Origin: Candidatus Magasanikiibacteriota bacterium
GTDB lineage: Bacteria > Patescibacteriota > Patescibacteriia > Magasanikbacterales > UBA922
Assembly (NCBI GenBank): GCA_018652595.1
Contig: JABIBU010000013.1
Location: forward strand, 93,043-157,042
Reading direction: 5' to 3'
Length of the DNA: 64,000 nt
Shown piece after piece: positions 9,130 to 59,455 of the stretch. The translations under genes and the position numbers were made by a program. How positions within the stretch are numbered: the first letter of the stretch is position 1; each line of letters opens with the position of its first letter. Below the pieces are notes generated by a model. The model worked only from the letters and a program-made list of their open reading frames with translations. It did not search any database and was not told the DNA's origin.

Positions 9130-10329
9130 TCATTTTTTGGCAAGCTGTTGATAAATAGTATCTAAATTTTTTGTAATTTTAGTCCAATTATACTTGTTTT
9201 TGGCAACTATTCTAACCTCGCGGGCAAACTGATCCCTATCCACATCTTGAGCAAAATAATTGTAAATTGCCTCAGTCAAATCATCTGTATTATTTGGACG
9301 AACCAACACCCCACCATCTCTAGCCACAGACCTAACACCAGGTAAATCACTGGCCACCACTGGGACACCACTGGCCATAGATTCCAAAAGCACCATACCA
9401 AAAGCCTCGGCTTGGCTTACCGATGGCAATACAAATAAATCAGCCAAATTATAAAACTCAGGCAATTCTTCATTAGTGACCTTTCCAACAAACTTTACCA
9501 GACCAGACAATCCAGAAACTTTGGTCTGCATCTCAAAATCAGCACGCAAATCACCATCACCTACCAAAATACACTGAACCGGCGTTTCATTCTTTTTTAA
9601 TTTCGAAAGCGCCCTGAGTAATACTGGGACACCTTTGAAATGATGGGCCATATCCATTCCACCAACAAATAAAACTGTTGGCAACTCACTAGATAATTCT
9701 ATTTTTTCAAATAAATCTTTTGGTTTTTCTCTTGGTGCAAATCTATCCAAATCCACACCAAAAGGAAGCTCATGCCATTTTTCTGGATTGGCACGATAGA
9801 CTGCAACCGCATCACTACTTTCTATATAATCAAAGGAGCTAACCATAATGGCATCTGCTGAATTTAAAATTTTTGGCATCCAGAATTTGGAATAATACTT
9901 AAAAATCAAACCTTTCCAACCGGGTCCGCGCGTGTCCATATGATAAGTAATAACCAAAGGCTTGTCTGGATTTTTTAATTTCCATTTTCTAACAAGATTG
10001 GCAGTACCAAAAAAAGGATAGTGCAAGTGTACCAAATCAAACCCATCCAACTCTCTGCCAATTTGTGGTAAACGAGCAGCATTACCATATTGTATACTTG
10101 GCTTTAAACGTCGACCATAGTCTTGCATCTCTTCCTGCTTTTCAATATGCTCACCAACTTCTATGTCTTCTCTTCTTTCTTCAAACTTTTTTTCTTCATG
10201 GTAGTACAGTGGCGTAATGACCTCTACATCGTGCCCCAAGTCTGATAAATGACTGATTGTTTGAAACACAACATTGCCCATACCTCCGTAGTATGGTGGA
10301 TAAGTACAAACTATGTGGGCTATTTTCAT
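9130..10329 (-). CDS. GT4-family glycosyltransferase (GT-B fold). Start moved to MKIAHIV... to avoid overlap with the upstream small ORF.
   Basis: C-terminal GT4 signature EAFGMVLLESMASGVPVVASDLPG. The ORF-track start (10404) overlaps the neighbouring gene by 60 nt. Confidence 0.75.
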   Translation of the reverse strand: MKIAHIVCTYPPYYGGMGNVVFQTISHLSDLGHDVEVITPLYYHEEKKFEERREDIEVGEHIEKQEEMQDYGRRLKPSIQYGNAARLPQIGRELDGFDLVHLHYPFFGTANLVRKWKLKNPDKPLVITYHMDTRGPGWKGLIFKYYSKFWMPKILNSADAIMVSSFDYIESSDAVAVYRANPEKWHELPFGVDLDRFAPREKPKDLFEKIELSSELPTVLFVGGMDMAHHFKGVPVLLRALSKLKKNETPVQCILVGDGDLRADFEMQTKVSGLSGLVKFVGKVTNEELPEFYNLADLFVLPSVSQAEAFGMVLLESMASGVPVVASDLPGVRSVARDGGVLVRPNNTDDLTEAIYNYFAQDVDRDQFAREVRIVAKNKYNWTKITKNLDTIYQQLAKK

Positions 10330-10342
10330 AAAATCAGCTCTA

Positions 10343-10669
10343 TTAAACACTATCCAAACTATCTTTTCTAACCACTTTAGTAATATCTCGCCCAATTGAC
10401 TCAATCTTTACATGCAATCGAAACAAAATAAAAAATATTATTGCCAGAGATACGTATAGTACTAGATCTGTTCCACGGCCAATACCTAAATAATTAGCCA
10501 ACTTTACAGTACTCTCAGGCCACCAAACAAAGATTGAGGCTAGTAACCAAAATACCACCCAAAAAATCGTACCTTTTGGGCCGAGTAAACTTTCCTTTTT
10601 CTTTTTTAAAACAGAAACTATCGCAAACAATGCGAAAGCTGTAAATAAAGTTTGGAATAATATAAGCAT
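10343..10669 (-). CDS. Small membrane protein (DUF2304-like) coupled to the polyprenol-phosphate GT2
   Basis: 108 aa with 3 TM helices. Its position immediately downstream of a DPM1-like GT2 is the usual GT2-DUF2304 pairing. Confidence 0.5.
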   Translation of the reverse strand: MLILFQTLFTAFALFAIVSVLKKKKESLLGPKGTIFWVVFWLLASIFVWWPESTVKLANYLGIGRGTDLVLYVSLAIIFFILFRLHVKIESIGRDITKVVRKDSLDSV

Positions 10670-10701
10670 AAATCAAGTCTTAAGTTATAAGTTTTAAATT
10701 A

Positions 10702-11361
10702 TTATCTCAAAAACTTCCCAAATACCAAATCTTTCACAACACCCAAACCATGTATCAATCCACCGCCATATTCATGGTACACTACTCGAACAGGATACTC
10801 AACATATTTTAAATCAAGCTTCTTGGCTTTGGCTGGAATCTCGGTAGCATGAGCCATTCTATCTTGTTCTATTTTTATCTGCTCTAGCGCTTTTCTATTT
10901 AAGATTCTAAAGCCATTGTGAATATCTGTCAAATTAACCCCACCAAATAATTTATTAAATAACCTAGCTGGTGGGAATAAAATATATTTTTTGAGCCAAG
11001 GAATTTTTGTTCTATCATCCAAAAATCTGGAACCAAACAATATATCAGAATTGGTTTTCTTTAGCTCTTCTAAAGCTGGTACAATATCACCCACATCAAA
11101 TTGCCCGTCACCATCAAAATGTAGTACATAATCAGCATTGTTTTTTAAGGCATAATCATGACCAGTTTGCAAAGCTGCCCCCTGACCACGATTTATTTTG
11201 TGTTGCAATACAGTGGCACCAGCCTTACTTGCATTTTCAATAGTTTTATCTTCTGAATTATCATCCACTACTACAACCTTATCAGTATGACCAAAAAGGC
11301 TCTGGACGACAGAGCCAATATTATTTTCTTCATTATATGCCGGAACTATCACTACAAACAT
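10702..11361 (-). CDS. GT2 polyprenol-monophosphate glycosyltransferase (DPM1/GtrB-like)
   Basis: VVIVPAYNEENNI...VVVVDDNSEDKT...DGDGQ: a GT-A fold with the DxD region, about 220 aa. Confidence 0.8.
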   Translation of the reverse strand: MFVVIVPAYNEENNIGSVVQSLFGHTDKVVVVDDNSEDKTIENASKAGATVLQHKINRGQGAALQTGHDYALKNNADYVLHFDGDGQFDVGDIVPALEELKKTNSDILFGSRFLDDRTKIPWLKKYILFPPARLFNKLFGGVNLTDIHNGFRILNRKALEQIKIEQDRMAHATEIPAKAKKLDLKYVEYPVRVVYHEYGGGLIHGLGVVKDLVFGKFLR

Positions 11362-11376
11362 ATTTATTATTCACTA

Positions 11377-12393
11377 TTAACCCCCCAACATCTCTTTATT
11401 AGCTATTGTATAATCAATTGTCTTTTTCAAACCATCTTCCAAAAGGATCAAAGGAATCCACCCCAAATCTTCTTTTGCGCGTGTCAAATTTGGTATTCCT
11501 TTTGGTGTCAAAAATACCAGAGGATCCTCTGTGACGACTTGTGAAGATGAGTCTGTCATCTCAATTATCTTGCGGGCCACATCGCCTATCTTTATAGGCC
11601 TATCGTGACCCAAATTCACCAAAGACATTTCTGGTCCAGTCCTCATAAGTCGCACAATACCATCCACCATATCAGTAACATAACAAAGAGACTGTTCCAT
11701 ATCCTCAGTTCCATAAATCACCAAATCCTTGCCCTCAAGAGCGGCAATAATAAAATCCGGAATCAAAAAACCGTCACGCAATTTCATACGAGGCCCAAAA
11801 GTAGTAAATACACGCGCAATTTTTGCGTCTAAACCATAAACTTGACGGTATGTCTCAACACAGGTCTCTGCAAAACGCTTTCCCTCGTCATAACACCCTC
11901 GTGGAGACAGATGATTTACTATCCCCTCATCCTCTTCTTTAAAAACACTGTGCCCCTCTCTAGGTGGTCCATAAATAACTGAACTGGAAGCAAAAACATA
12001 CTTTGCCTTGTGTTTTACTGCAAGATCCAAAGTAGAGATCATTCCATTGGAATTTGCCCACAGAGAATTTAGTTTTAATTTTTCAAAATTCTTTGGGCTA
12101 GTTGGGCAAGCGAGGTGATAAATTTCTTGAATACCTTGAAATTTTACTTTAAATTTTGCCAACTCTTCAAAATCGTCCAGATCTATCTTTTTATTTGTAT
12201 CATATTTTATAAATTCAAAATCAGGATATTGTAAAAGATGTTCAATATTATTAATTTTGGAATTGGACAAATCATCCATGCAAATTACTTTGGCCTCTTT
12301 CAAAAGACGCTCACATAAATGTGAACCCAAAAATCCAGCCCCACCAGTAACAAGCACATTCTTTTTTTCAAAAATTGGTGTTTCTCCTATCAT
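11377..12393 (-). CDS. NAD-dependent epimerase/dehydratase, UDP-glucuronate decarboxylase (UXS)-like
   Basis: GxxGxxG (VTGGAGFLGSHL), YxxxK, and TTFGPRMKLRDGFLIPDFI, which resembles the UXS NTYGPRM...GRVVSNFI block. Confidence 0.65.
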   Translation of the reverse strand: MIGETPIFEKKNVLVTGGAGFLGSHLCERLLKEAKVICMDDLSNSKINNIEHLLQYPDFEFIKYDTNKKIDLDDFEELAKFKVKFQGIQEIYHLACPTSPKNFEKLKLNSLWANSNGMISTLDLAVKHKAKYVFASSSVIYGPPREGHSVFKEEDEGIVNHLSPRGCYDEGKRFAETCVETYRQVYGLDAKIARVFTTFGPRMKLRDGFLIPDFIIAALEGKDLVIYGTEDMEQSLCYVTDMVDGIVRLMRTGPEMSLVNLGHDRPIKIGDVARKIIEMTDSSSQVVTEDPLVFLTPKGIPNLTRAKEDLGWIPLILLEDGLKKTIDYTIANKEMLGG

Positions 12394-12452: not shown

Positions 12453-14426
12453 TTAATAAGTTAACAATTCAAGATTTACATGACCCAAGCCTTCAAAAGG
12501 TTCCCACTCTGCTATTTTTTTTGCTCTATATGTCCAAACTCGCATCGGCTGATCACCTTTTTTTGCATAGACTGCTACATCGTCTTTGTTGTCTCCGTCA
12601 TAGTCTATAATATCTATATCTAGAGCCCCTATATAATTTAAATTATAAGGTGAAAACTTACGCTTCAGTTTACCATTGCTCTCCAAAAATAACAAAAATG
12701 CTGATTCTTTTTCTCCACCAGTCAAAACAAACTCATCGTCACCATCATTGTCTACGTCCCCAACAGTAATATCACCCCTATCATTAAAATATTTTATTTC
12801 TACACTCTTCAACAAACTTCCATTACCACGATATTTTTCTAATTTTAGGGAATTACTTTTGTAGTACACCACCACGTCATATTTTCCAGCGCTTCTTTTG
12901 TATAAATCTAGCGAAACACCTTTGTGGTTTTTTTCTAGATCAACTTTTTTCAGTAATTTTCCTTCCAGATTGTAAACCTGAAATAAATTCTTTGATTTAT
13001 TTTTTGGGGCAATAATTATCTCTTTATTACTATCACCATAAACATCTCCGACCACAATACTTTGCCCACCCTCAGCAGAGACTCTAAAACCACCAATCTG
13101 ATCACCTAATTTATTTTTTGTCAAAATTTCTATCTGACCCTCTACAAATGAATCTCTCGCTACTACAAATAAGTCAGCACCTGACTTTTTATAAACCGCC
13201 ACATCATAAATATCTTTCAAAAATAACTTATCATCCGAAAAACCGCGGTTATCTATCTTTTGATCCCAACTAGATCCAGTGTCTGTATTGAATGAAAGAA
13301 TGTGATTAAATTTAGAACCACCATTCAAAAAACCAGCAGCATACTTAACAGCCTCATTTGCTTGCACAAAACCAGCACCAAAAAGTTGAGCATAACCCTC
13401 AACATCATCATTTGGAGTACGGTGTACTGTGCTAATCAAGGCTTCCATGATCTCTATTGGATTCCAACTAGGTTGCAGACTCTTTACCAATGCCGCTACC
13501 CCACTTATAATTGGTGCTGCGAAAGAAGTTCCATTCCAACCACCCATATAACGATCTTTCAATCCATTGGTAGGTGAAAACCTAACCGTAGTAGAAATAT
13601 TGGCTCCAGGAGCAGTTATATCTATACAGTCTGATCCCGTATTAGAGAAGGATGTTAAATGGTGTTTTTCATTGGTAGCACTGACTCCAAATACTGTCTG
13701 GATATCACTACCAGAATCAAAGCATATTGGATAAAGAGAGTTGTCACCATTTAGAGAATATGAATTATTTCCAGCGGCCGCGACCACTAGTACATTCTTT
13801 TCGTAGGCATAATCAACCGCATCTTTCATTTCTTCTGTATAGTACCCAACCATGCTGATATTTATTATATCTGCTCCATTGTCTACTGCATAGCGAATTG
13901 CCTCATCCATAGTATCTAGGCTTCCAGAGCCAAGATTGCCCAAAACTTTTATATTCATTAGCTTGACTCTCCAATTTATCCCAACTCCATCTTTTTTGTT
14001 ATCTCCCCTAGCCCCTATCAGTCCCGCCACCATAGTACCGTGACTAAAAATCTGTTTAGATATTTCAGACTCATCCAAATTATCTACTTTCGGCCTAGGA
14101 TCATTATTATCATCAGCAAAATTCCAACCATAGACATCATCTATATATCCGTTATCGTCATCATCTAGACCGTTATTTTTTATCTCATCATTATTTATCC
14201 ACAAATTATCGCGCAAATCAGGATGAAAACTGTCAAAACCATTGTCAATTATGGCGACTATCACTTCGTCTGATCCAACAGTATAGTCCCAAGCTTCATA
14301 AAGGCCAATATCCTTATAGGCCCACTGATATACAAAAGGATCGTTTGGTTCTAGAGCCAAACAAAAACTAGGCATTAAAAAAATGCTTATTACCAAAAAT
14401 GATATTGATTTGTAATATTTAAACAT
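12453..14426 (-). CDS. Secreted subtilisin-like serine protease (S8) with C-terminal FG-GAP/VCBS-like repeats
   Basis: Signal peptide, catalytic triad motifs VAIIDNGFD / HGTMVAG / GTSFAAPIISG, and C-terminal VGDVDNDGDDE repeats. Confidence 0.85.
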   Translation of the reverse strand: MFKYYKSISFLVISIFLMPSFCLALEPNDPFVYQWAYKDIGLYEAWDYTVGSDEVIVAIIDNGFDSFHPDLRDNLWINNDEIKNNGLDDDDNGYIDDVYGWNFADDNNDPRPKVDNLDESEISKQIFSHGTMVAGLIGARGDNKKDGVGINWRVKLMNIKVLGNLGSGSLDTMDEAIRYAVDNGADIINISMVGYYTEEMKDAVDYAYEKNVLVVAAAGNNSYSLNGDNSLYPICFDSGSDIQTVFGVSATNEKHHLTSFSNTGSDCIDITAPGANISTTVRFSPTNGLKDRYMGGWNGTSFAAPIISGVAALVKSLQPSWNPIEIMEALISTVHRTPNDDVEGYAQLFGAGFVQANEAVKYAAGFLNGGSKFNHILSFNTDTGSSWDQKIDNRGFSDDKLFLKDIYDVAVYKKSGADLFVVARDSFVEGQIEILTKNKLGDQIGGFRVSAEGGQSIVVGDVYGDSNKEIIIAPKNKSKNLFQVYNLEGKLLKKVDLEKNHKGVSLDLYKRSAGKYDVVVYYKSNSLKLEKYRGNGSLLKSVEIKYFNDRGDITVGDVDNDGDDEFVLTGGEKESAFLLFLESNGKLKRKFSPYNLNYIGALDIDIIDYDGDNKDDVAVYAKKGDQPMRVWTYRAKKIAEWEPFEGLGHVNLELLTY

Positions 14427-14433
14427 TTTAAAA

Positions 14434-15960
14434 TTATAAATTACTTAGATTTCCTTCTTTACTTACGCGCTGTGGAATAGATATTTTCTGGTCTCCCATG
14501 CTTACATTACCTGAATTACTAAAAGGTACAGTAATTGGTGATTTAACAATAAACTTAGCTTGGAAGTTATTAGATTTAAAACGCTTATCACTAGACTTAC
14601 TAGACACATAACGATAGGATCCTTCGTGATCACGATAGTAATATTTGTTATTTTTTCTAACTAGCGTACCTTTGGCATATTCATAAGTACCAGCACCTGC
14701 CTCAGTTATTGCACTTACCCCAACTGGTGAAAAACCACTGACCACTTCCACCCCGTCTTTAAAGCCATCATTATCACTATCATCGTCTACCGGATCAGAA
14801 AACCAATAAAAAATTTCTTCATAATCGGACAAACCATCAGAATCCGTATCTTTATTGTGATCACTAGAACCATATACATCTTCTGTGCTATCCTCTACTC
14901 CATCTTTATCGCTATCAGTATAATCTTCGTCTTCACCTAATAAATAGTGTGGATAATTGACTTTATAATAACTTTTTAAGACTAGATCTAACTCTAAAAT
15001 TCTGTTTGACCAATTTACCCCATAAATAAGACTGGCTTCTGCCTCTGAACGCAATAGTCTCAATTGGCAACCAGGTTCCACTGCATATACATGTGGCAAA
15101 CTTTTAAATTTTACCAACCAGGTACCCTGCCTCACACAAACAGGAGACCCAACTTTATATTGACTTAATTTTGAATTACTAACATATTGTATTTTGTCAA
15201 AATTTTCATGCCAAGAATGATAGATAGCACCATTGAAAAATGGATGGATCCTTCCATCATATCCCAAATAATAAACGGTGCTTACCTGCCCTTTGAGCAA
15301 GGTACCCTCTGAGATATAATAACCTGGCTGTTCATATCTAATTTCTTTTTTTATTGTTTTTGTCTCACCTCTGATATCCTTAAATTGAACAAATACTTCC
15401 TTGTCGCCAGTTTCTGCAGTTAAAATCCAGGCAGCAGTATCTTCTATCCACAACCAACTAGAATCTGAAAAATCGTTTGAATTGCTTATTCTAATTTTTT
15501 CTACTCCAGGTGACCAATCTAAATTTAATTGTATATAACGAGAATCAACAATCCCGTCACTCTCTTCGTCATCACCACCATCATCAACAATTTCGAAATC
15601 AACGGACATATTAATTGGTGAAGATAATAGTATATAATCCCGATAAATACCGGAAATATCGTTATCCTTGGTTTTAAATCGAACATATACAGTCTGATAC
15701 CCGCTACCATATTCCAAATACCATACTTTAGAAGTTTTGAAGGACTCCCAATTGGAACCGGAAAAATCAGCTATATTCGATATTCTCATCTCCTTAACAT
15801 TTTCTGGTCCTTTTAGGTATAGGTTTACTTTTCTAGCCTGAGTAGAAAGACTGCCTTTGTTAATTCGAACATATGGCTCTTCTACTGCCAAAACCCGAAA
15901 AACACCGCCAAAAACACAGGTAAATAAAATTAAGCAAAGAAAGACTTGATTTTTCTTCAT
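14434..15960 (-). CDS. Secreted protein with TSP3/dockerin-like acidic Ca-binding repeats
   Basis: Signal peptide and repeated DxDxDGxxD motifs (DSDGLSDYEE, DSDNDGFKDG). Confidence 0.45.
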   Translation of the reverse strand: MKKNQVFLCLILFTCVFGGVFRVLAVEEPYVRINKGSLSTQARKVNLYLKGPENVKEMRISNIADFSGSNWESFKTSKVWYLEYGSGYQTVYVRFKTKDNDISGIYRDYILLSSPINMSVDFEIVDDGGDDEESDGIVDSRYIQLNLDWSPGVEKIRISNSNDFSDSSWLWIEDTAAWILTAETGDKEVFVQFKDIRGETKTIKKEIRYEQPGYYISEGTLLKGQVSTVYYLGYDGRIHPFFNGAIYHSWHENFDKIQYVSNSKLSQYKVGSPVCVRQGTWLVKFKSLPHVYAVEPGCQLRLLRSEAEASLIYGVNWSNRILELDLVLKSYYKVNYPHYLLGEDEDYTDSDKDGVEDSTEDVYGSSDHNKDTDSDGLSDYEEIFYWFSDPVDDDSDNDGFKDGVEVVSGFSPVGVSAITEAGAGTYEYAKGTLVRKNNKYYYRDHEGSYRYVSSKSSDKRFKSNNFQAKFIVKSPITVPFSNSGNVSMGDQKISIPQRVSKEGNLSNL

Positions 15961-16023
15961 ATATATGCTAATATTAAATTGTTTTATGGTATAATTATAC
16001 CAAAAGTAACCACAAAATACAAT

Positions 16024-18413: not shown

Positions 18414-18426
18414 ATATTTATTTTAA

Positions 18427-19818: not shown

Positions 19819-19822
19819 ATCA

Positions 19823-24752: not shown

Positions 24753-24762
24753 TACATCTTGA

Positions 24763-47007: not shown

Positions 47008-47013
47008 ATTTCA

Positions 47014-47652: not shown

Positions 47653-47656
47653 ATGC

Positions 47657-50082: not shown

Positions 50083-50321
50083 TCTTTAGTTTTATCTATA
50101 GTTTTAATTTTTACTTTTTGATATAAATTTGTTGCCTTTTTATCAACCTCTGGAGAGACTATACGCAACAATTCATGCCCTAAAATCCTATATTGTTTGC
50201 CAACTTTATTGGCTCTAAGAAGCCCCTTCTTTAGAAGACGTTTCATGGTGCTATTACTGACTTTTAGCAATTTTTCAGCTTCGGCAGTTGTATACACCTC
50301 ATTTGGGTTGATTTCTCCCAT
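50076..50321 (-). CDS. Small HTH DNA-binding protein (excisionase/MerR-like HTH_17 family), first gene of the wzx operon
   Basis: 81 aa. YTTAEAEKLLKVSNSTMKRLLKKGLL is a helix-turn-helix. Confidence 0.6.
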   Translation of the reverse strand: MGEINPNEVYTTAEAEKLLKVSNSTMKRLLKKGLLRANKVGKQYRILGHELLRIVSPEVDKKATNLYQKVKIKTIDKTKDW

Positions 50322-51444: not shown

Positions 51445-51448
51445 AATT

Positions 51449-52339
51449 TTAACTATTAACTGTCTTTTTGAGATATTCCTCTGAATCTTGGTCTAATTTG
51501 GGATCTATTAGACTCTGCAAGTGATCACAAATTAATCTAGCGACCTCTTCTTGATATTGTGCATATGTCTTTACCTCGACCAAACCGTCATCTACACTCT
51601 CGCAATCACCCACTTCAACCACTTCTCCGGCATCATCAAAACCCAAACCCTCTTTATACAAAAAAGGATAGCGCTCTTTAAATTTACCAGCTTCCATCCT
51701 CTCACCTGTTGTTACAAATTTTGTATCTCCTTTTGTACCAGGTAGAGGTGAAGATGTCATATCATCTGCCAAATGAACTATCATATCTTCGATACTTCTA
51801 TCTGGATTCAAAACTAACTCTCCATCTTCATCTAAGCTAATGAAATCTTCTAGACTCCCATGACCTGTTTCTTTGCCAGATGCTTCTACATAGCTCAATA
51901 AATCTTCTGAAATCCCCTGATCTTTCAATAAACTCTGCATGGTCTCGTAAGCCTCTTTATCATAAACACCCTCAGATTGATGCGAGCCTCTAGCTTTTTT
52001 TCTAAAAATTTCAAAGCGCTTATTAGCATCGTGTATTAAAGATCTTTCTGTAATATTTCTATACATTTCATCATCAATGGCCCCTGAACTCAATAATTTC
52101 TCAGCTATTTTATTTGCACAAATTCCGACGGATATACAATGTTCCCCCACATTACGAAAATCTTCAGCGTCTGGTTCATTATCTTTGTATGGATTGGGAA
52201 CTGCTTCAGTTTTATCTGGATGCACTCCGCCAACCTCCAAAACCTTGAAAGCCTGTGGAAATTCTTTTGTAAATTCTACTTTTGCCTCTGCATATCTCTG
52301 TTCCCAAGGTTTAAATTTTCCTGTGTCATGTGTGCTCAT
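51449..52339 (-). CDS. Hypothetical HD-domain-like protein, atypically GC-rich, inserted between fcl and gmd
   Basis: Candidate HD motifs [15 protein letters not shown] and VHLADDM. GC content is clearly above the surroundings, with spurious overlapping plus-strand ORFs. Confidence 0.4.
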
Positions 52340-52367
52340 ATTATAAAATACTATATTTTATTAATTT

Positions 52368-53420
52368 TTATACTAAATAATCCTTTGATACGAGACCCAT
52401 CTCTTCAAACTCAGCCTCTACCATTAATTTTACAAGCTCTTCAAATTTTACTTTCGGCTCCCAACCCAAAGTGTTTTTTGCCTTAGTAGCATCGCCAAGC
52501 AGTTTCTCAACTTCTGCTGGACGAAAATACTTCTCATCAATTTCGATCAGAACCTTCCCAGTCTTTAGATCTACACCTTTTTCATCTACACCACTCCCCT
52601 TCCATTCTATCTCATATCCAAGAAGTCGTGCACTGTGTTCTACAAACTCACGAACAGTATGTGTCTCACCAGTAGCCACAACATAGTCATCTGGCTTTTC
52701 TTGCTGGAGCATTAGCCACATGGCCTCTACATAATCTTTTGCATAGCCCCAATCACGCTTGGCATCTAGATTTCCCAAATATAATTTATCTTGCTTTCCT
52801 AGTTTAATCTTGGCAAATGCATTGGTAATTTTTTTTGTTACAAAGGTACCACCACGACGAGGAGATTCATGATTGAATAATAATCCATTGCAAATAAACA
52901 TGTCATAACTCTCGCGATAGTTTATACAGATATTATGCGCAAAAACTTTGGCGCAAGCATACGGACTACGCGGATAAAATGGTGTAGTCTCTTTTTGTGG
53001 AGTCTCAAAGACCTTACCAAACATCTCAGAAGATCCTGCCTGATAAAATTTTACATCAACACCTTTATCTTTTATTGCATCTATTAGCCTAAGAGTACCA
53101 AGGCCATCAGCATTACAAGTATACTCAGGTATTTCAAAACTTACTTTCACATGGCTCTGGGCACCAAGATTATAAATCTCATCTGGTTTTATTTTATCCA
53201 AAACACGACTGATATTACTAGAATCTGTAAGATCTCCGTAATGCAAAAACATTTTTACATTTTTTTCATGTGGATCTCTATATATATGATCAATTCTATC
53301 AGTATTAAAGCTACTAGAGCGACGAATAATACCGTGAACCTCATACCCCTTTTTTAATAAAAATTCTGCCAAATAAGAACCATCTTGACCAGTAATACCC
53401 GTAATTAGTGCTTTCTTCAT
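52368..53420 (-). CDS. gmd: GDP-mannose 4,6-dehydratase
   Basis: [22 protein letters not shown], YxxxK, and conserved GMD blocks over 350 aa. Confidence 0.9.
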
Positions 53421-53436: not shown

Positions 53437-55461
53437 TTATTCACTCTGCAAAATAGAATCCACTACACCACTGCCCTTTGCATCAAAAACAATACCATCG
53501 TCCATTGCCTCTTGTAAAATTTCTTTTGCCTTTTCAACGTCTCCCATCTGCTTATAAAGCAAAGCCATTCTCCACCAACCCTCACCAATTCGCGGGTCAT
53601 TGTCAATACTGTCTTGTAATATTTTAACAGCCTCATCATTTTTATTTAGTTGGGACTTTAGTGATGCCAATGTATATTGAAGCTGTTGGCGTTTTGGTGA
53701 AAGAACCAAAGCATCTTCCAAATACTGCTCTGCCTCAAACAAAAGATCTGGGCTCTGCTCTAGTTGGGCTCCTAGCGTGTTGATAAATGCTAATTCAATA
53801 TTAATTCTAATATCCATTGGATGTAATTCTAAGTTTTTTTGCAACTCAGAATGCATCAACTCAAACAATCTAAAAGCCTCTAACCCCTTATTATTTTGGG
53901 ATAGTTTGGGAATTATATTGCCTGATATACGAGCAACATCTTTTCTAATGTCATCTATGTGTGGTGAGGGTGTGCTAGTAGCATGATTATATACTTCTGA
54001 TATATCTTGCCCTGTGTTTAGTACCCTTATGACATTGAGGGCTGCTATGTTTGCTCTAGCTGGGTTTATATTTGTAGAAAACACCATCAACAAAACTACC
54101 AGGCTCACAATAGTAGTCAGACCAACAGAAATATTTTTAGATGTCTTTTTCTCTGCACGTACATCCAAATTATTTGTATGTCTCGATATTAGTGCCAAAA
54201 AGAAAAAGAAATACAAATACGAAGTTGGGTTATCAAAAACAGTAACCAGACTTACCAGGTGTGCGATTAAAAACGCAGAGCCAACAGCAACAATATGTGG
54301 ATCTAAATTATCTTTTTTACGACTTCTCCATAGCATAATAAAAGCTACGACGAAAACCCCAAGATAAGTCACAATACCAACTCCACCCTGCACAGCTAGT
54401 GTATTCATTACTACACTATGAGCGTTATCAAACCAAGTTTCACCCCATCCGTGTTCCAAAAATTCTGCCCTATAGTACTTATTAAAGGCGTAATAATAAT
54501 TATTGGGCCCCCAACCAAATACTGGTCTTTCTTTCCAAGCATCCACAGCAATACCCCAAGCCATAATACGAGTGTTGGCTGTACCACCAGAGATCTGTGT
54601 ATTTACCAAACGACCAACTGCTGGAATATTTTTTACAAAATCAGTCTGTCTAAAATTGAATAGCAGGGCTAAAACAATAACACCTAGAATTATCAAAATA
54701 CCCAATCCTTGTCTAATTTTTTTGTGCTCTCTAAGGCTAATAATATATGAAACTGCCAAAACACCCAATCCTGCAACTAGCCCCAAAAAAGCACCACGAG
54801 TACCACCACCAAAAATACCCCAAAAACCAAGCAAGCCACCTACCACAGCATACCAAAACCATAGATTGGTCTTTTTTATTTTTTCTTTTATGGCCAATAA
54901 ATAACCAACAAACAACAAGAATAAACCATAACCACTAAAATATATTGCATTGCCCAATGTAGAAGATACACGAGATACCTTGCCCTGATTCACAACCAAA
55001 TCATGATTGACATATGTCTGCAAAAAACCTATAAACATCACGATTCCACCAGCAAACAAAAAGGCCCGAAGTAGCCATTTCCAGTCTTCCCACTCTCGAA
55101 CTACAGATGTAGCAATAAAATAATAAACTACATAATGAAAAATAGTAAAAAGCCCCAACATCCTCTCATGATTATCCCAAAGACTGTGATACCAATCCAC
55201 ACCAGCAAAAGTAGAAATAGCAAAACTAATAAAAAATAGACCTACCACAGTATTTATAGGCGTTAGTCTAATCCTATACCTAGCCCAATTACTAGCCAAA
55301 AGCAAAATATACGCCCCAAGCATGAGCATTACAAAGCTCCTAAACCAGACAATCTTCGGTACTATAAAAGGAAAAATGTAACTATCTGGTATAACAATCA
55401 AAGGCACGAAAAAGGTTGCGCAGATCAATATTTTAATTATGTATTCTAATTTTTTTTGCAT
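53437..55461 (-). CDS. O-antigen ligase-family (Wzy_C) membrane protein with a C-terminal TPR domain. Candidate O-oligosaccharyltransferase.
   Basis: About 12 TM with a large periplasmic loop in the N-terminal ~430 aa. The C-terminal ~230 aa carry TPR-like repeats (ALLYKQMGDVEKAKEIL...). Confidence 0.65.
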   Translation of the reverse strand: MQKKLEYIIKILICATFFVPLIVIPDSYIFPFIVPKIVWFRSFVMLMLGAYILLLASNWARYRIRLTPINTVVGLFFISFAISTFAGVDWYHSLWDNHERMLGLFTIFHYVVYYFIATSVVREWEDWKWLLRAFLFAGGIVMFIGFLQTYVNHDLVVNQGKVSRVSSTLGNAIYFSGYGLFLLFVGYLLAIKEKIKKTNLWFWYAVVGGLLGFWGIFGGGTRGAFLGLVAGLGVLAVSYIISLREHKKIRQGLGILIILGVIVLALLFNFRQTDFVKNIPAVGRLVNTQISGGTANTRIMAWGIAVDAWKERPVFGWGPNNYYYAFNKYYRAEFLEHGWGETWFDNAHSVVMNTLAVQGGVGIVTYLGVFVVAFIMLWRSRKKDNLDPHIVAVGSAFLIAHLVSLVTVFDNPTSYLYFFFFLALISRHTNNLDVRAEKKTSKNISVGLTTIVSLVVLLMVFSTNINPARANIAALNVIRVLNTGQDISEVYNHATSTPSPHIDDIRKDVARISGNIIPKLSQNNKGLEAFRLFELMHSELQKNLELHPMDIRINIELAFINTLGAQLEQSPDLLFEAEQYLEDALVLSPKRQQLQYTLASLKSQLNKNDEAVKILQDSIDNDPRIGEGWWRMALLYKQMGDVEKAKEILQEAMDDGIVFDAKGSGVVDSILQSE

Positions 55462-55573
55462 ACTAAAAAGCCTAAAATGCCTTAAAAGCTGAAAAAGCTG
55501 AGAAGGCTTATAAAAATAATATACTAATTATAGCCTTTTTAAAAATTTTTGGCAATAGTACGCAAGACAAACC

Positions 55574-55606
55574 AAAACCCCCCCGACTAGGTCGGGAGGG
55601 TTTTGT
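55574..55606. terminator. Bidirectional rho-independent terminator downstream of the giant surface-protein gene
   Basis: aaaaCCCCCCGACtagGTCGGGAGGGtttt. Confidence 0.6.
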
Positions 55607-55654: not shown

Positions 55655-58600
55655 TTAGTTGTTTGTTGGGGCTGATATCTTTGTACCGCCAATACTTGTA
55701 GTATCTAGTAATAGATAATCGAAGTTACTAGCTGTAGCATAAACAGTATCATAACCATCAAACCAATCAATATTGTTGTTTGCATCAGCAGCTCCACCCT
55801 TTAGATCATCCAATCCAACCTGAATCCAGTTGGTAATATTTGATGTTGGGCTTAAGCTGTTAATGTTAGCGTTTAGAGCAAAGTAAGCTGTTGTTCCGGC
55901 ATCGATGAAAGCGTCGTTTCCAAGAGTGGATGTAACGCTAGTCATTGTCCAGTCACCAGCAATATCTGCTGTAGTTGCGCCAGTACTACTTCCTGTTACA
56001 GTCAAATTAACTGCACCATTTGCACCACCAATTCTCTCGATAGTAGCACCACTAATAGAAGTAGATGCAAACTTTGTCATATCGAACAAGAAATTGTCAA
56101 TACCTAATTTTAGAGCATTGCCATTGGCGTCAGTATTACTACCAGCTTCAACAGTAATGGCCACGATACCTACAGTAGTACTACCAGTACCTGCAATAGT
56201 TGAGGCAACTGTCTTACCACCATAAGAACTAACTAATTCTACATTGCTGATCTTTGTACCAGATATATAGAAAATAGTTGTACTTGCTGTACCGGTAAGA
56301 TCGGCTTCTTCACCAAAAGTACCATTGACATCAAGATCGAATACTATATCACCTGCGGCAATAGCGGCAGCAGAGCTAGAATAATAAGCTAACTCATCAC
56401 CAGATTCTACACCTTGAGCAGTCAAATGACCACTAGAAGTAACAATTCCAAACTGTACTAGGTCTTGTGAGTCTGCAGTAGCAGCACCAGCATTACCCAT
56501 TTCGTTTGTGGCCACATAGATATACCAATCATGTGTACCCATTGTCACTGTTTCATTGATATTATCAAAGAAAGCAAGCTGACTATTAACAGTAGTACAA
56601 CCAATTAGGTTTTCAGCAACAGCAGACATAGCAGAATACAGACATACTGATTCTACTGAGTCTTCGTCACCTGCGCTACTATTTGTCAACTTAAGATCTT
56701 TTACCATGATATCCTCAAAATCAGCTCTCATACGCAATTTACCAACCCAAGCATCTGAACCTGCCATCAACACTCTATCTTTGTCGAAGCTAGTATCAGC
56801 ATTACGCATTTGAACATATAGAATACCCTTTGAATTCAATGTTAGAATACGAGTAGTATCCAACTCATTACCAGCACTATCAAGAGCTGTGCCAGCTGAA
56901 TTGACAACACTAGCATCGTCATTATCTACATCTTTTGCTGTCAAACCGTCCATACGGATATGAACTATATTGGCAGTAGTACTTACAGTACTAGCGACGC
57001 TACCTTTCACAACAAAGGTGGCTTTGTCACCAGATGCGACAGTAAAGTCTAGGGTGTCAAAATCCAAATCATCAGCAGTCATTCCTGAGTTAGTGATGTT
57101 TTGTTGTAATTCATATTCACCAGCATCGCTAACCAAGTAAAAGCCCATATCAGACCAATTTGTAATAGCAAATAAATTGGTAGTAGTAGCTTCGAATTGT
57201 GCGCGTTCTATTCTAACATCACCAGCAGTAGCATCCATTGTACCTTGGAATAAGATTACGCTACTATCATTTACTACTGCATTACCAGTATTCATTGGAG
57301 TAGCTTTTACAGTCAAAGTAGGTTTTCTTACAGTAATCAACTTACCAGTAACAGTACCTACAGAGAAATTGCTAACAGAGTCTCCTGCAGGAACAGTCTC
57401 AGCTGTAATATTTGCAGTATTGACGCTTAGCTTGTAGCTATCATCTTCACCAGCAGTAGTACTAGCTGGGATATCACCACGAACAAGCAAAGTGATTGAT
57501 TCGCCGGCTGAAAGATAAATTTCATCAGTATAAACCCAATCTTCAGTTACAGCGTCAGTATCTACTCCGCTAGCAGTAGTACCAGAATAAGCAGCGCCAG
57601 AAACAACGTCTACCAATTCTAGATCGTCTACAGCTATTACAAAAGTACCAGTATCGGCACCGTCTGTTTCGTCAACATCTACTTGAATAGATGTAATCTT
57701 GATATCTGTAGAACCAGAGCTAAGTGTAAGACGACCGAATTCTACATCAGTAGAATCATCAGCAGTTTCTAGAGCAACACTAGTTAGACCTACATTAAGC
57801 TCTGCACCAGCGATGGTAATAATATTACCTTCAGTGGCTGCATCATAGTTATCATCTGTAACAGTAAGTCTTGTGTTGTATGTATCACCAATTACATTCA
57901 AATCAGTTGTTGAGTCCAACACAAATTCAACTGTATTGGCAGCACCATTCACAATATCACCTTTTACAGTGAAAGTTTCATTCTTACTCTTAGAAATTGG
58001 AAATGCTTCATCCAAAACAAAAGTAATCTTGTCACTTACCATTGAAACAGGACCAGCCAATAAATCAGCGCCTTGATAAAGATAGATATTAGCTAAATTA
58101 TCATCAGCAGCGTTATTAGTCGCAGCCTTATTCTTCAATGTAATAGCGTTAAACATTGAATTTTCTACTGAATTTACAGCCAATTTGAACTTTGTCAAAG
58201 CGACATCAGTAGTACCAATATTCTTGCTTCCAGTAGTACCAACACCTGTAATAGTAACTCCACCAGTAGTTACAGAGACACCTGTCATCTGATTACCATA
58301 TAGAGGAGTACCACCTACATCACCGTCGTTTCCTAGACCCAAGTCTAGAATACCAATGGAGTTATAAGTTCCAGCTGTAAGTAAGTTAACAACGACAGTC
58401 AATTCCTTTGAAGTACCTGCTGTGATTGTCCAACCACCAGAGATATTATAAGTCATATAACCATCTGAGTGCCATGATGTTCTAGTACTACCAAGTTTTG
58501 TAGCACCATCATACAATGTAACAGATGTAAAGTCACCAGTAGCACCAAGACCGGTACGACCAATCTTTACAGAATTAACTACAGCATCATTGTCGTCACT

Positions 58601-59455
58601 AGCACGTAATATAGCCTTTAAGAAGACTACATTGTCAGTAGCTACAACAACATTACCTGCGTCAGGTGTGTTGGCTGATAGACTTACAGTCACATCACCA
58701 CCAACAACAGCTGGAGTTTCTGTATCATCATCAGCATCATCCCCTGCACTAGCAGTAATCTGACCTGGATCCTCTACTAGAGAGCCGGTAGTAACAGTTT
58801 CAGCACCCATTTCTAAGCTATCAAACGCAGCTTGAGAAACAGTATACAATACACCATTATAATCGCCATCTACCTCGTATGTCATGCCGTCTACAACAGA
58901 GTATACTTTTTCACCATCAACGGTGACAACCATACCATTTTGTAAAGTAACGTCAAGTGTTTCGGCTCCAGTAGTATAGTTAGCCCAATGAAAAGCGTGC
59001 ACATCTCTTACCATTGAAGCCCAAGCATCTCCGAAAAGACCTTTTGCAACTGCCTCGCTAGTAATTTTTGTACGCATATTACCTGGAAGAACAGCAAAGA
59101 CAGATGGACCGTCAATACGTTTTACTAGGTAAGAACCAGGGCGATAGTTTACGCCAGCTGGATCACCTTGTGGATATAACTCATTACAGGCAGCTGAAAT
59201 TTCTTCAACACCTGAATAATCTACAAACCAAGTTTTGTATACTTCCGCATTTGGGAAGTACATACTTTCCATATCTGCATTCAAGATGTACACAGCTGTA
59301 CCAGCACTTGTTTTGTACAAGTCACCAGCTTCTAGCTCTGGACATGCATCTTCTGCTACAGCAACCATAGGAACCAAGGCAGCAAGGCCAACGCTCCATA
59401 CAATTGTCATAGCGACAACAGACACGGTAAAGAATTTTTTTGCAATTTTTACCAT
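55655..59455 (-). CDS. Giant secreted surface protein (S-layer-like or adhesin-like), Thr/Ser/Gly/Val/Asp-rich
   Basis: 1266 aa. N-terminal signal peptide (MVKIAKKFFTVSVVAMTIVWSVGLAALVPMVAVA), no TM, low-complexity beta-rich repeats, and higher GC than neighbours. Confidence 0.65.
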   Translation of the reverse strand: MVKIAKKFFTVSVVAMTIVWSVGLAALVPMVAVAEDACPELEAGDLYKTSAGTAVYILNADMESMYFPNAEVYKTWFVDYSGVEEISAACNELYPQGDPAGVNYRPGSYLVKRIDGPSVFAVLPGNMRTKITSEAVAKGLFGDAWASMVRDVHAFHWANYTTGAETLDVTLQNGMVVTVDGEKVYSVVDGMTYEVDGDYNGVLYTVSQAAFDSLEMGAETVTTGSLVEDPGQITASAGDDADDDTETPAVVGGDVTVSLSANTPDAGNVVVATDNVVFLKAILRASDDNDAVVNSVKIGRTGLGATGDFTSVTLYDGATKLGSTRTSWHSDGYMTYNISGGWTITAGTSKELTVVVNLLTAGTYNSIGILDLGLGNDGDVGGTPLYGNQMTGVSVTTGGVTITGVGTTGSKNIGTTDVALTKFKLAVNSVENSMFNAITLKNKAATNNAADDNLANIYLYQGADLLAGPVSMVSDKITFVLDEAFPISKSKNETFTVKGDIVNGAANTVEFVLDSTTDLNVIGDTYNTRLTVTDDNYDAATEGNIITIAGAELNVGLTSVALETADDSTDVEFGRLTLSSGSTDIKITSIQVDVDETDGADTGTFVIAVDDLELVDVVSGAAYSGTTASGVDTDAVTEDWVYTDEIYLSAGESITLLVRGDIPASTTAGEDDSYKLSVNTANITAETVPAGDSVSNFSVGTVTGKLITVRKPTLTVKATPMNTGNAVVNDSSVILFQGTMDATAGDVRIERAQFEATTTNLFAITNWSDMGFYLVSDAGEYELQQNITNSGMTADDLDFDTLDFTVASGDKATFVVKGSVASTVSTTANIVHIRMDGLTAKDVDNDDASVVNSAGTALDSAGNELDTTRILTLNSKGILYVQMRNADTSFDKDRVLMAGSDAWVGKLRMRADFEDIMVKDLKLTNSSAGDEDSVESVCLYSAMSAVAENLIGCTTVNSQLAFFDNINETVTMGTHDWYIYVATNEMGNAGAATADSQDLVQFGIVTSSGHLTAQGVESGDELAYYSSSAAAIAAGDIVFDLDVNGTFGEEADLTGTASTTIFYISGTKISNVELVSSYGGKTVASTIAGTGSTTVGIVAITVEAGSNTDANGNALKLGIDNFLFDMTKFASTSISGATIERIGGANGAVNLTVTGSSTGATTADIAGDWTMTSVTSTLGNDAFIDAGTTAYFALNANINSLSPTSNITNWIQVGLDDLKGGAADANNNIDWFDGYDTVYATASNFDYLLLDTTSIGGTKISAPTNN

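What the first reader, a model, noticed from the sequence alone, without database searches (positions are those of the whole stretch)
9130..59455. About 46-kb surface-glycan island abutting a giant S/T-rich secreted protein: candidate novel S-layer/surface-protein O-glycosylation system
The interval packs four nucleotide-sugar routes: CDP-3,6-dideoxyhexose, dTDP-deoxyhexose, GDP-fucose and UDP-GlcA/Xyl. It also carries more than ten glycosyltransferases (GT2, GT4, GT10, GT11, GT-D), an initiating WbaP-like phosphoglycosyltransferase, a Wzx flippase, and an O-antigen-ligase(Wzy_C)+TPR protein. This parts list matches known S-layer glycosylation (slg) loci (initiating transferase, flippase, WsaB/PglL-like O-OTase with a Wzy_C domain). 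It ends directly at a 1266-aa signal-peptide, Thr/Ser-rich surface protein with its own ECF sigma/anti-sigma pair. No Wzz is evident, and no canonical Wzy beyond the large membrane proteins. Such a complex glycan machine next to a probable S-layer gene in a small low-GC, CPR-like genome would be undescribed.
Basis: partly seen in the sequence, partly recalled or inferred. Interest (0 to 1): 0.85.

Follow-up and report, generated by a model that had tools for sequence, protein, structure and literature searches.

The report
Candidate S-layer glycosylation locus in Magasanikbacteria
A tiny uncultured bacterium (Candidatus Magasanikbacteria, CPR) carries a 46-kb sugar-building gene cluster next to the gene for a large wall-anchored surface protein, laid out like the known surface-layer protein glycosylation loci of Gram-positive bacteria, so it is probably a new example of a known kind of system.

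Summary
Window 9130-55461 holds 11 firm and 2 weak glycosyltransferases, a phosphoglycosyltransferase, a Wzx flippase, and CDP-, dTDP-, GDP-fucose and UDP-GlcA sugar routes. It ends in a 674-aa Wzy_C+TPR membrane protein, beside a 1266-aa secreted protein with an ECF sigma/anti-sigma pair. UDP-xylose synthesis is not shown. The source is a Candidatus Magasanikbacteria (CPR) genome.

The giant protein models as an N-terminal module plus about ten beta-sandwich domains. Distant homologs replace that module with SLH or PG_binding_1 domains, so it is probably a wall anchor.

The layout matches Geobacillus/Paenibacillus S-layer glycosylation loci, where WsfB is also Wzy_C+TPR. The PglL_A motif is absent. 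Neither glycosylation nor a lattice can be shown here. My verdict is a probable S-layer-type O-glycosylation locus, a new member of a known kind, of moderate interest.

The parts
61212..61760 (-). ECF-type sigma factor
   Evidence: Sigma70_r2 and Sigma70_r4_2. It lies upstream of the giant gene in Magasanik- and Falkowbacteria loci.
59791..61203 (-). Putative membrane anti-sigma factor (DUF5667)
   Evidence: PF18915 at 7e-9. One TM segment at about residues 59-93. It always follows the sigma gene in related loci.
55655..59455 (-). 1266-aa secreted, acidic, Thr/Ala/Val/Gly/Asp-rich surface protein; candidate S-layer protein and glycan acceptor
   Evidence: Signal peptide present; no Pfam family. 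118 homologs, all those named by a source being CPR. AF2 pLDDT 87.8: N-terminal alpha/beta domain, disordered linker, then about 10 beta-sandwich domains. Composition.
58751..59347 (-). N-terminal ~200-aa module of the giant protein; candidate cell-envelope anchor
   Evidence: Distant homologs carry 3xSLH or PG_binding_1 in its place. 3088 representative proteins carry it, mostly just after a signal peptide. In other proteins it is fused to many extracellular domains.
55573..55605 (-). Intrinsic terminator after the giant gene
   Evidence: 15-bp stem with 9 GC pairs, followed by a T-rich tail.
55527..55555 (-). Sigma-70-like promoter of the Wzy_C-TPR/glycan operon
   Evidence: TTGCCA-17-TATAAT, 11 of 12 matches.
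53437..55461 (-). Wzy_C + C-terminal TPR membrane protein; candidate O-oligosaccharyltransferase/ligase
50494..53420 (-). GDP-fucose route: Gmd (52368-53420), unknown 296-aa protein (51449-52339), Fcl (50494-51444)
   Evidence: TIGR01472 590 bits; NF047922 497 bits. Gmd is within the flanks of 29 and Fcl of 28 of the 80 related loci.
50076..50321 (-). Small HTH_17 protein inside the operon
   Evidence: Called with PF12728 in the identical locus L001. Conserved in 20 of 80 loci.
48544..50082 (-). Wzx-type flippase
   Evidence: Polysacc_synt and Polysacc_synt_3; multiple predicted TM segments.
43843..48547 (-). dTDP-deoxyhexose route and GT2-like: RmlD, C-methyltransferase::RmlB fusion, RmlC-like, GT2-like
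   Evidence: TIGR01214 295 bits; TIGR01181 388 bits; Methyltransf_13/14; TIGR01221 110 bits.
34884..43792 (-). CDP-sugar route with branching/methylation enzymes: GFO oxidoreductase, C-methyltransferase, RfbH, SDR, split transketolase pair, CDP-Glc 4,6-dehydratase-like, G1P cytidylyltransferase, methyltransferase
   Evidence: RfbH NF011936 697 bits; TIGR02623 274 bits; TIGR02622 200 bits; Transketolase_N/pyr/C.
29507..34855 (-). GT2 (29507-30208), two SDRs, GT-D, two GT2
   Evidence: Pfam.
26776..29517 (-). 913-aa polytopic membrane protein; GtrC-like extracytoplasmic glycosyltransferase candidate, paired with GT2 29507-30208
   Evidence: No Pfam family. 18 homologs, three of them fused to GtrA (PF04138) and one of those also to GT2.
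17508..26759 (-). SDR (UXS/GalE-like), UGDH, GT4, GT2, GT11, acyltransferase_3::SDR, weak GT1-like, GT10 fucosyltransferase
   Evidence: Pfam and NCBIfam.
15946..17412 (+). Initiating polyprenyl-phosphate hexose-1-phosphate transferase (WbaP/WcaJ-like)
   Evidence: Bac_transf 8e-58; TIGR03025 350 bits.
12453..15960 (-). Secreted S8 peptidase+FG-GAP (12453-14426) and a 508-aa secreted protein (14434-15960) that carries the same N-terminal module as the giant protein
   Evidence: Peptidase_S8 1e-50; phmmer 1.7e-10 to the N-terminal module.
9130..12393 (-). Distal end of the island: GT4, DUF2304 small membrane protein, short GT2, SDR
   Evidence: Pfam.

Best explanation
This is a surface-protein (probably S-layer) O-glycosylation locus of a monoderm CPR bacterium. 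It is built like the slg loci of Geobacillus and Paenibacillus.

**Proposed mechanism.**
1. The WbaP-like transferase starts a glycan on a polyprenyl phosphate carrier.
2. About a dozen cytoplasmic glycosyltransferases extend it. They use fucose, glucuronic acid, dTDP-6-deoxy/C-methyl hexoses and CDP-derived 3,6-dideoxy or branched sugars made by the island. O-acylation and methylation are likely.
3. Wzx flips the lipid-linked glycan outward.
4. A GtrB-like GT2 plus the 913-aa GtrC-like protein may add a side sugar outside the membrane.
5. The Wzy_C-TPR protein transfers the glycan en bloc from the carrier to Ser, Thr or Tyr of the neighbouring 1266-aa secreted protein. It has a WaaL-type membrane domain, and both its catalytic loop and its TPR domain face outward. 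The TPR domain would hold the protein substrate.
6. The giant protein is separately transcribed, possibly under the adjacent ECF sigma factor. It attaches to the cell envelope through its N-terminal module.

**Shown:** gene content, folds, topology, synteny and the conservation pattern.
**Inferred:** donor and acceptor identity, en-bloc transfer, S-layer formation and ECF control.
For: 1. All enzyme classes needed are present.
2. The order sigma / DUF5667 / giant protein / Wzy_C-TPR / Gmd is conserved in genomes whose giant proteins are only 46-55% identical, while the downstream glycan genes differ.
3. In a species-level scan, 35 of 50 loci with a full 8-kb upstream flank have the giant homolog upstream on the same strand. 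5 more have a different large secreted S/T-rich protein there.
5. Wzy_C-TPR keeps 46-70% identity across 206 species genomes, whereas Wzx and most GT genes are not shared. That is how an acceptor-specific ligase or OTase behaves, not a repeat-unit-specific Wzy polymerase.
7. The positive-inside rule puts the 80-residue catalytic loop and the TPR domain outside the membrane.
8. The giant protein has a signal peptide, an acidic Thr/Ala/Val/Gly-rich and Cys-poor composition, and beta-sandwich arrays. Homologs carry SLH or PG_binding_1 anchors in place of its N-terminal domain.
9. A strong terminator and then a promoter separate the giant gene from the glycan operon, and GC dips in the island centre. 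Both are described features of slg loci. WsfB is Wzy_C+TPR, and WsaA is a separate TPR protein (PMC2943079).
10. Distant giant homologs that lack a nearby Wzy_C have a small membrane-anchored TPR protein 1-3 genes downstream.
11. CPR cells show a periodic surface layer and no outer membrane (PMC7906910).
Against: - There is no direct evidence that the giant protein is glycosylated or forms a lattice.
- The PglL_A and Wzy_C_2 Pfam motifs are not detected even at E<=10.
- Fold alone cannot separate OTase, WaaL ligase and Wzy polymerase.
- In 10 of 50 related loci the Wzy_C-TPR gene sits among housekeeping genes, with no large secreted protein within 8 kb upstream.
- Wzy_C-TPR is more tightly linked to Gmd/Fcl than to the giant gene.
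- The stand-alone TPR proteins next to distant homologs show only generic TPR similarity to the fused domain.
- Known Gram-positive slg loci use an ABC transporter, whereas this one uses Wzx.
- Foldseek hits of the giant protein are generic Ig-like arrays; an S-layer protein (7ptp) appears only at rank 17.
Confidence: 0.55

Rival explanations
1. The island makes a protein-free cell-wall or capsule-like heteropolysaccharide by a Wzx/Wzy-type route. Wzy_C-TPR would be its polymerase, or a ligase to a non-protein acceptor. The giant protein would be merely a neighbouring surface protein, or would bind this polymer non-covalently through its N-terminal module, as SLH domains bind secondary cell-wall polymers.
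For: - Wzy_C is shared by Wzy polymerases, WaaL ligases and OTases, and only the WaaL fold can be confirmed.
- Wzy_C-TPR is the only Wzy_C protein in the window.
- PGT plus Wzx is the standard Wzy-dependent set.
- Gmd/Fcl linkage to Wzy_C-TPR is stronger than giant-protein linkage.
- 10 of 50 related loci lack any large secreted protein upstream.
- S-layer genes in Bacillus lie next to wall-polymer genes (my own knowledge, not tested here).
Against: - No Wzz/PCP, tyrosine kinase or LCP ligase is in the window.
- Wzy polymerases normally diverge with the repeat unit. This protein stays 46-70% identical across species with different glycan genes.
- The outward-facing TPR domain is a feature of protein-directed transferases such as WsfB (PMC2943079).
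- The N-terminal module is conserved while the glycan genes are hypervariable, which fits poorly with that glycan being its ligand.
- The related locus L007 carries an additional short Wzy_C gene among GT4 genes, which could be the polymerase there.
Confidence: 0.3
2. Wzy_C-TPR is a general O-oligosaccharyltransferase that glycosylates many secreted proteins. Candidates include the many proteins that carry the same N-terminal module. The giant protein would be only the most abundant substrate, as in the Neisseria and Bacteroidota general O-glycosylation systems.
For: - Wzy_C-TPR occurs without the giant gene nearby in some genomes.
- The N-terminal module is shared by thousands of CPR surface proteins, including the 14434-15960 product in this island.
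- General systems with PglL-type enzymes are known (PMC3643930).
Against: Nothing in the data separates a dedicated from a general OTase. The tight adjacency in most close relatives favours a preferred substrate.
Confidence: 0.1
3. The 53437-55461 product is an ordinary WaaL that ligates O-antigen to lipid A-core in a diderm organism with LPS.
For: The top structural match is WaaL, and several sources annotate it as 'O-antigen ligase family'.
Against: - The organism is a Magasanikbacterium.
- CPR cells are reported to lack an outer membrane (PMC7906910).
- No lipid A or core genes are in the window.
- Characterised WaaL lacks an extra TM helix and an outward TPR domain (the 7tpj chain is 403 residues, against 674 here).
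Confidence: 0.02

Closest known systems
S-layer glycosylation (slg) loci of Geobacillus stearothermophilus NRS 2004/3a and Paenibacillus alvei CCM 2051T (WsaB/WsfB O-OTases, WsaP/WsfP initiating transferases)
   Same: - A glycan cluster lies next to a monocistronic S-layer-type gene.
- The initiating enzyme is WbaP-like.
- The candidate OTase is a Wzy_C membrane protein with a C-terminal TPR (WsfB), or has a separate small TPR protein (WsaA).
- rml-type sugar genes are present.
- GC is lowest in the strain-specific centre (PMC2943079; window).
   Different: - Export is by a Wzx flippase instead of a Wzm/Wzt ABC transporter.
- The sugar repertoire is much larger: four nucleotide-sugar routes, C-methyl or branched sugars, and fucosyltransferases.
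- The acceptor protein has no SLH domain but an uncharacterised N-terminal module.
- A conserved ECF sigma/anti-sigma pair lies upstream.
- The host is a CPR bacterium.
- No direct sequence comparison with WsaB or WsfB could be made with the tools.
PglL/PilO-type O-oligosaccharyltransferases of Gram-negative bacteria
   Same: - A Wzy_C domain is present.
- Conserved Arg/Arg/His and P-x2-G-x-G residues sit in the outward loop (PMC3643930).
- The gene is adjacent to, and in the same orientation as, a putative acceptor gene.
- The donor would be a Wzx-flipped lipid-linked glycan.
   Different: - The PglL_A (PF15864) motif is not detected.
- The acceptor is not a pilin.
- The organism is monoderm.
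- There is an extra TM helix and a roughly 200-residue TPR domain.
WaaL O-antigen ligase (Cupriavidus metallidurans, PDB 7tpg/7tpj)
   Different: The host is not expected to have a lipid A-core acceptor. This protein also has a 13th TM helix and an extracytoplasmic TPR domain, and it lies beside a surface-protein gene.
Gtr-type three-component glycan modification systems (GtrA/GtrB/GtrC; CsbB/YfhO in Firmicutes)
   Same: A short GT2 (29507-30208) overlaps a 913-aa polytopic membrane protein. Homologs of that protein are fused to GtrA and GT2 domains.
   Different: The 913-aa protein matches no Pfam model. No separate GtrA is recognised in the window; only a DUF2304 small membrane protein lies next to another short GT2 at 10343-11361.

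Membership tests
slg-type S-layer protein O-glycosylation locus | Wzy_C-domain membrane protein (with TPR, or with a separate TPR partner) as candidate O-OTase within or next to the cluster | tested here: met
   Wzy_C 8e-17 plus TPR_8/TPR_19; WaaL fold; the review describes WsfB/WsaA.
slg-type S-layer protein O-glycosylation locus | WbaP-like initiating polyprenyl-phosphate hexose-1-P transferase | tested here: met
   Bac_transf 8e-58; TIGR03025 350 bits, above cut-off 295.
slg-type S-layer protein O-glycosylation locus | S-layer structural gene nearby, transcribed on its own | tested here: inconclusive
   A terminator and then a promoter separate the giant gene from the operon. That the giant protein is an S-layer protein is inferred, not shown.
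slg-type S-layer protein O-glycosylation locus | Wzm/Wzt ABC transporter for glycan export (in the characterised Geobacillus and Paenibacillus loci) | tested here: not met
   No ABC transporter is in the island; a Wzx flippase is present instead.
slg-type S-layer protein O-glycosylation locus | Glycan covalently O-linked to the S-layer protein | not testable with these tools
   Needs glycoproteomics or heterologous reconstitution.
PglL family O-OTase | PglL_A (PF15864) / PglL_B motifs flanking Wzy_C | tested here: not met
   No PF15864 or PF11846 hit at E<=10.
PglL family O-OTase | Conserved Arg, Arg and His of the Wzy_C region, and the P/G-x-G loop residues | tested here: inconclusive
   R298, H348, G316 and G318 are invariant, and R222 and P313 nearly invariant, in 32 homologs. 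Correspondence to PglL R224/R298/H349/P313/G316/G318 rests on similar numbering and the Wzy_C match, not on an alignment.
WaaL O-antigen ligase | WaaL membrane fold | tested here: met
WaaL O-antigen ligase | Host makes lipid A-core (diderm with LPS) | not testable with these tools
   Only 64 kb is in hand, with no lpx/kdt genes in it. The literature reports CPR cells without an outer membrane.
Wzy O-antigen/capsule polymerase | Sequence co-varies with the repeat unit; usually partnered by a Wzz/PCP chain-length regulator | tested here: not met
   46-70% identity across species with different glycan genes. No Wzz/PCP domain in any window ORF.
Bacterial S-layer protein | Secreted, acidic, Cys-poor protein with a cell-wall anchoring module plus assembly domains | tested here: met
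   Signal peptide; D+E 13% against K+R 4.8%; 4 Cys. N-terminal module swapped for SLH or PG_binding_1 in homologs. Beta-sandwich array.
Bacterial S-layer protein | Forms a 2-D paracrystalline lattice and is a dominant cell protein | not testable with these tools
   Needs cryo-ET, proteomics or in vitro assembly.
Gtr-type glycan modification system | GtrB-like GT2 plus polytopic GtrC-like transferase (plus GtrA flippase) | tested here: inconclusive
   GT2 29507-30208 overlaps the 913-aa gene. Homologs P0240, P0242 and P0249 are fused to GtrA, and P0242 also to GT2. No GtrA was found in the window.

The most novel reading that the evidence does not exclude
The ~1270-aa protein family is the unidentified S-layer protein of Magasanikbacteria and neighbouring CPR lineages. 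It would be held on the cell by a previously unrecognised ~200-residue envelope-anchor module that thousands of CPR surface proteins share. A dedicated, conserved Wzy_C-TPR O-oligosaccharyltransferase would coat it with species-specific, hypervariable glycans. The glycosylated lattice would then be the variable outer face these episymbionts present to hosts and phages.
Probability: 0.35. Interest if true: 0.7.

Novelty: new member of a known kind. Interest (0 to 1): 0.45.

Why it matters
CPR bacteria show periodic surface layers in cryo-EM, but the proteins involved and their modifications are largely uncharacterised. This locus gives three testable things:
- a concrete candidate for the surface-layer protein;
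- a candidate transferase;
- a candidate envelope-anchor module shared by thousands of CPR surface proteins.

If confirmed, it would extend Gram-positive-type S-layer O-glycosylation to a very different, host-dependent lineage. It would also mark the hypervariable glycan island as a likely determinant of host and phage recognition. If the rival holds, it is an ordinary though unusually rich surface-polysaccharide locus.

Tried and rejected
1. **Phase variation at the A8 tract.** The tract lies just after the start codon of the Wzy_C-TPR gene, and gene callers gave 628-674 aa in different assemblies. The DNA of six assemblies is identical there, so the difference is only start-codon choice.
2. 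**Conserved leader or promoter upstream of the giant gene.** The 335-bp GC-rich region does not align with four related loci, and Rfam finds nothing there.
3. **The 913-aa membrane protein as a Wzy polymerase.** Its homologs are fused to GtrA and GT2, so it is more likely GtrC-like.
4. **Sequence search of the Wzy_C domain and the giant protein against PDB.** Only TPR hits or nothing came back.
5. **Homology of the stand-alone TPR proteins next to distant giant homologs to the fused TPR domain.** Only generic TPR similarity was found, with best E-values of 0.001-0.02.
6. **Foldseek of the giant protein.** Hits were generic Ig-like arrays and not diagnostic.
8. **Literature searches.** Searches for CPR/Patescibacteria S-layer glycosylation, Magasanikbacteria S-layer and DUF5667 found no description of this system. 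One preprint states that S-layer proteins were predicted in Patescibacteria, without details accessible here.


Full report
**Observation.** Nearly all genes of the window lie on the minus strand.

- Eleven confident glycosyltransferases: GT4 x2, GT2 x5 and GT11 alongside GT10 and GT-D, with the PGT counted separately. Two weak GT-like ORFs add to these.
- A WbaP/WcaJ-like phosphoglycosyltransferase on the plus strand (15946-17412).
- Wzx (48544-50082).
- A 674-aa Wzy_C+TPR protein (53437-55461).

The sugar routes are as follows.
- CDP: RfbF-like, CDP-glucose dehydratase-like, and RfbH at 697 bits.
- dTDP: a C-methyltransferase::RmlB fusion, RmlC-like, and RmlD.
- GDP-fucose: Gmd at 590 bits and Fcl at 497 bits.
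- UDP-GlcA: UGDH.

Three details differ from the finding.
- No RmlA and no E3 reductase are present.
- The supposed UDP-xylose synthase (17508-18413) is an SDR that scores best as GalE/TviC-like, below all cut-offs.
- The CDP block also holds a split transketolase pair, a C-methyltransferase and a GFO oxidoreductase, which suggests branched or C-methylated deoxysugars.

No ORF has a Wzz, LCP or second Wzy_C domain. GC falls to 0.29-0.32 in the centre of the island, against 0.35-0.41 at its edges.

**Source organism.** The 1266-aa protein is found, identical, on 23 of the contigs read, including Candidatus Magasanikbacteria MAG GCA_018657365.1. Its 118 homologs that carry a source name are all from CPR lineages: Magasanik-, Uhr-, Falkow-, Nealson- and Adlerbacteria. 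Cryo-TEM of CPR cells shows a periodic surface layer and no outer membrane (PMC7906910). An ordinary lipid A-core ligase role for the Wzy_C protein is therefore unlikely.

**The giant protein.**
- It has a Sec-type signal peptide.
- S+T is 20% (T 12.2%, S 8.1%), against about 11% across the window's ORFs. D+E is 13% against K+R 4.8%, and it has only four Cys. This is a typical S-layer-like composition.
- AlphaFold2 with 48 sequences gives pLDDT 87.8. The model has an alpha/beta N-terminal domain (about residues 37-230), a disordered acidic linker, and then about ten beta-sandwich domains.
- Foldseek returns only generic Ig-like arrays. The Haloferax S-layer protein 7ptp is at rank 17, so the fold is compatible with an S-layer protein but not diagnostic.

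Distant homologs are more informative. They keep the beta-rich body but carry three SLH domains or a PG_binding_1 domain in place of the N-terminal domain. That is the pattern expected if the N-terminal domain is a cell-envelope anchor.

An exhaustive HMMER search with this 199-residue domain finds 3088 representative proteins of 195-2178 aa. The domain mostly sits right after a signal peptide and sometimes at the C-terminus. In 55 carriers that are not giant-family proteins, the domain is joined to many extracellular modules: beta-helix, DsbA-type thioredoxin, fn3, PQQ propeller, GH113, peptidase C25, trypsin, CAP, and an archaeal S-layer domain. A second secreted protein inside the island (14434-15960) also carries it. 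No Pfam model covers it.

**The Wzy_C-TPR protein.**
- AlphaFold2 (pLDDT 85, pTM 0.85) gives a 13-helix membrane domain plus a C-terminal TPR solenoid.
- Short K/R-rich loops alternate with K/R-poor ones in the way expected for an N-in topology. This places the 80-residue loop 270-349 and the TPR domain outside the membrane.
- R298, H348, G316 and G318 are invariant, and R222 and P313 nearly invariant, among 32 homologs. They recall the residues listed for PglL and WaaL in PMC3643930. This mapping is by position and Pfam match only.
- The PglL_A and Wzy_C_2 motifs are not detected even at E<=10. I therefore do not file it as a PglL-family member.

**Context.** The order HTH_17 (divergent) / ECF sigma / DUF5667 protein / giant protein / Wzy_C(-TPR) / Gmd recurs in genomes whose giant proteins are 46-55% identical to the window's. 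The genes further downstream differ.
- GCA_021648085.1 has LicD and methyltransferase genes there.
- GCA_040960375.1 has a heptose pathway and GT9.
- GCA_001784435.1 has four extra surface-protein genes inserted between the giant gene and Wzy_C.

A scan of one genome per species finds a Wzy_C-TPR relative in 206 stretches, and 80 loci were kept.
- Of the 50 loci with a full 8-kb upstream flank, 35 have a giant-family ORF upstream on the same strand. It is either adjacent or 1-4.5 kb away.
- Five more loci have a different large secreted S/T-rich protein there.
- Ten have housekeeping neighbours.
- Within the 8-kb flanks, Gmd, Fcl and a small HTH_17 gene are shared by 29, 28 and 20 of the 80 loci. 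Wzx and nearly all other island genes are not shared.

Wzy_C-TPR is thus a conserved gene (46-70% identity) at the edge of a hypervariable glycan region. It is usually next to the giant gene and is more conserved than the giant gene. That pattern fits an enzyme that recognises a conserved acceptor and tolerates many donors, meaning a ligase or OTase. It does not fit a Wzy polymerase, which normally changes with the repeat unit.

In Falkowbacteria, Adlerbacteria and an SLH-type locus, the giant homolog has no Wzy_C neighbour. Instead a small membrane-anchored TPR protein lies 1-3 genes downstream. Its similarity to the fused TPR is only generic, so this is suggestive and no more.

**Transcription signals.** A 15-bp GC-rich hairpin with a T-rich tail follows the giant gene (55605-55573). 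A TTGCCA-17-TATAAT promoter (55555-55527) then precedes Wzy_C-TPR. The giant gene is therefore probably its own transcription unit.

**Comparison with known systems.** The review of S-layer glycosylation (PMC2943079) lists the following features of slg loci:
- a WbaP-like initiating enzyme;
- consecutive GT and sugar genes, with the lowest GC in the strain-specific centre;
- a Wzy_C O-OTase that carries a C-terminal TPR motif (WsfB), or has a separate 168-aa TPR protein beside it (WsaA/WsaB);
- S-layer genes that are transcribed monocistronically and, in Geobacillus, lie next to the cluster.

The window matches all of these except the export step, where it has Wzx instead of Wzm/Wzt. It adds a much richer sugar repertoire, a Gtr-like side-branch module, an ECF sigma/anti-sigma pair and a new anchor module. 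The 913-aa protein in the side-branch module has homologs fused to GtrA and GT2.

**Conclusion.** The best explanation is a surface-protein (probably S-layer) O-glycosylation locus in which Wzy_C-TPR transfers a Wzx-flipped, lipid-linked complex glycan to the adjacent giant protein (confidence about 0.55).
- The main rival is a protein-free wall or capsule polysaccharide with Wzy_C-TPR as polymerase or ligase (about 0.3).
- A general rather than dedicated OTase is about 0.1.
- A classical WaaL is about 0.02.

No paper in the searchable library describes this system in CPR. One preprint says S-layer proteins were predicted in Patescibacteria. I rate it a new member of a known kind and of moderate interest. 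Its main value is that it names concrete, testable candidates for the CPR surface layer, its glycosyltransferase and a widespread anchor module.

Noticed in passing
window 58751-59347 (-); also 14434-15960 (-): A ~200-residue N-terminal domain with no Pfam model occurs in 3088 representative proteins, mostly just after a signal peptide. It is fused to many different extracellular domains. It looks like an uncharacterised CPR cell-envelope anchor module.
   Followed up: partly
window 50076-50321 (-): An 81-aa HTH_17 protein is encoded inside the glycan operon between Fcl and Wzx, overlapping the Wzx start. It is conserved in 20 of 80 related loci. A second, divergent HTH_17 gene lies at 62370-62699 upstream of the sigma factor.
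   Followed up: partly
window 34884-47007 (-): There is a C-methyltransferase::RmlB fusion (44698-47007), a second C-methyltransferase (35904-37184), and a split transketolase pair (39409-41195) next to RfbH. These suggest C-methyl or branched-chain deoxysugars. RmlA and the E3 reductase partner of RfbH are missing from the window.
   Followed up: no
window 26776-30208 (-): A 913-aa polytopic protein has no Pfam match and only 18 homologs. Three homologs are fused to GtrA and one of those also to GT2. With the overlapping short GT2 it probably forms a Gtr-like extracytoplasmic glycosylation module.
   Followed up: partly
window 3585-4868 (-): Just outside the island is a 427-aa polytopic protein with weak PMT_2 (E 0.0018) and LA_3751/LA_3752 putative glycosyltransferase matches. 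It is a possible GT-C enzyme, next to tRNA-Met and tRNA-Glu.
   Followed up: no
L051, L053, L059, L060, L093 (upstream of the Wzy_C-TPR match at about 8001): In five related genomes the Wzy_C-TPR gene follows a different large secreted protein of 997-1296 aa, S/T-rich in most. In four of them (not L093) it has an N-terminal ...YD(T/S)N(V/I)AHPNI... motif. This suggests replacement of the neighbouring surface protein.
   Followed up: no
L012 13794-14477; L013 15817-16380; L014 15588-16283: Small membrane-anchored TPR proteins of 187-231 aa lie 1-3 genes downstream of distant giant-protein homologs that lack a Wzy_C neighbour. This recalls WsaA of Geobacillus.
   Followed up: partly
window 59456-59790 (-): A 335-bp GC-rich, hairpin-rich region lies between the anti-sigma gene and the giant gene. 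It is not conserved in related loci and has no Rfam match. It may hold a terminator plus a long leader.
   Followed up: partly
L017, L018, L027, L029 and many others (record titles): Many contigs that encode this Magasanikbacteria-type locus are titled 'uncultured Gammaproteobacteria bacterium' in the genome collection. This is probably a labelling error in the deposited MAGs.
   Followed up: no
window 12453-14426 (-): A secreted subtilase (mycosin-like, 180 bits) with FG-GAP repeats sits inside the glycan island. The related locus L008 has a GHL15+FG-GAP protein among its GT4 genes.
   Followed up: no
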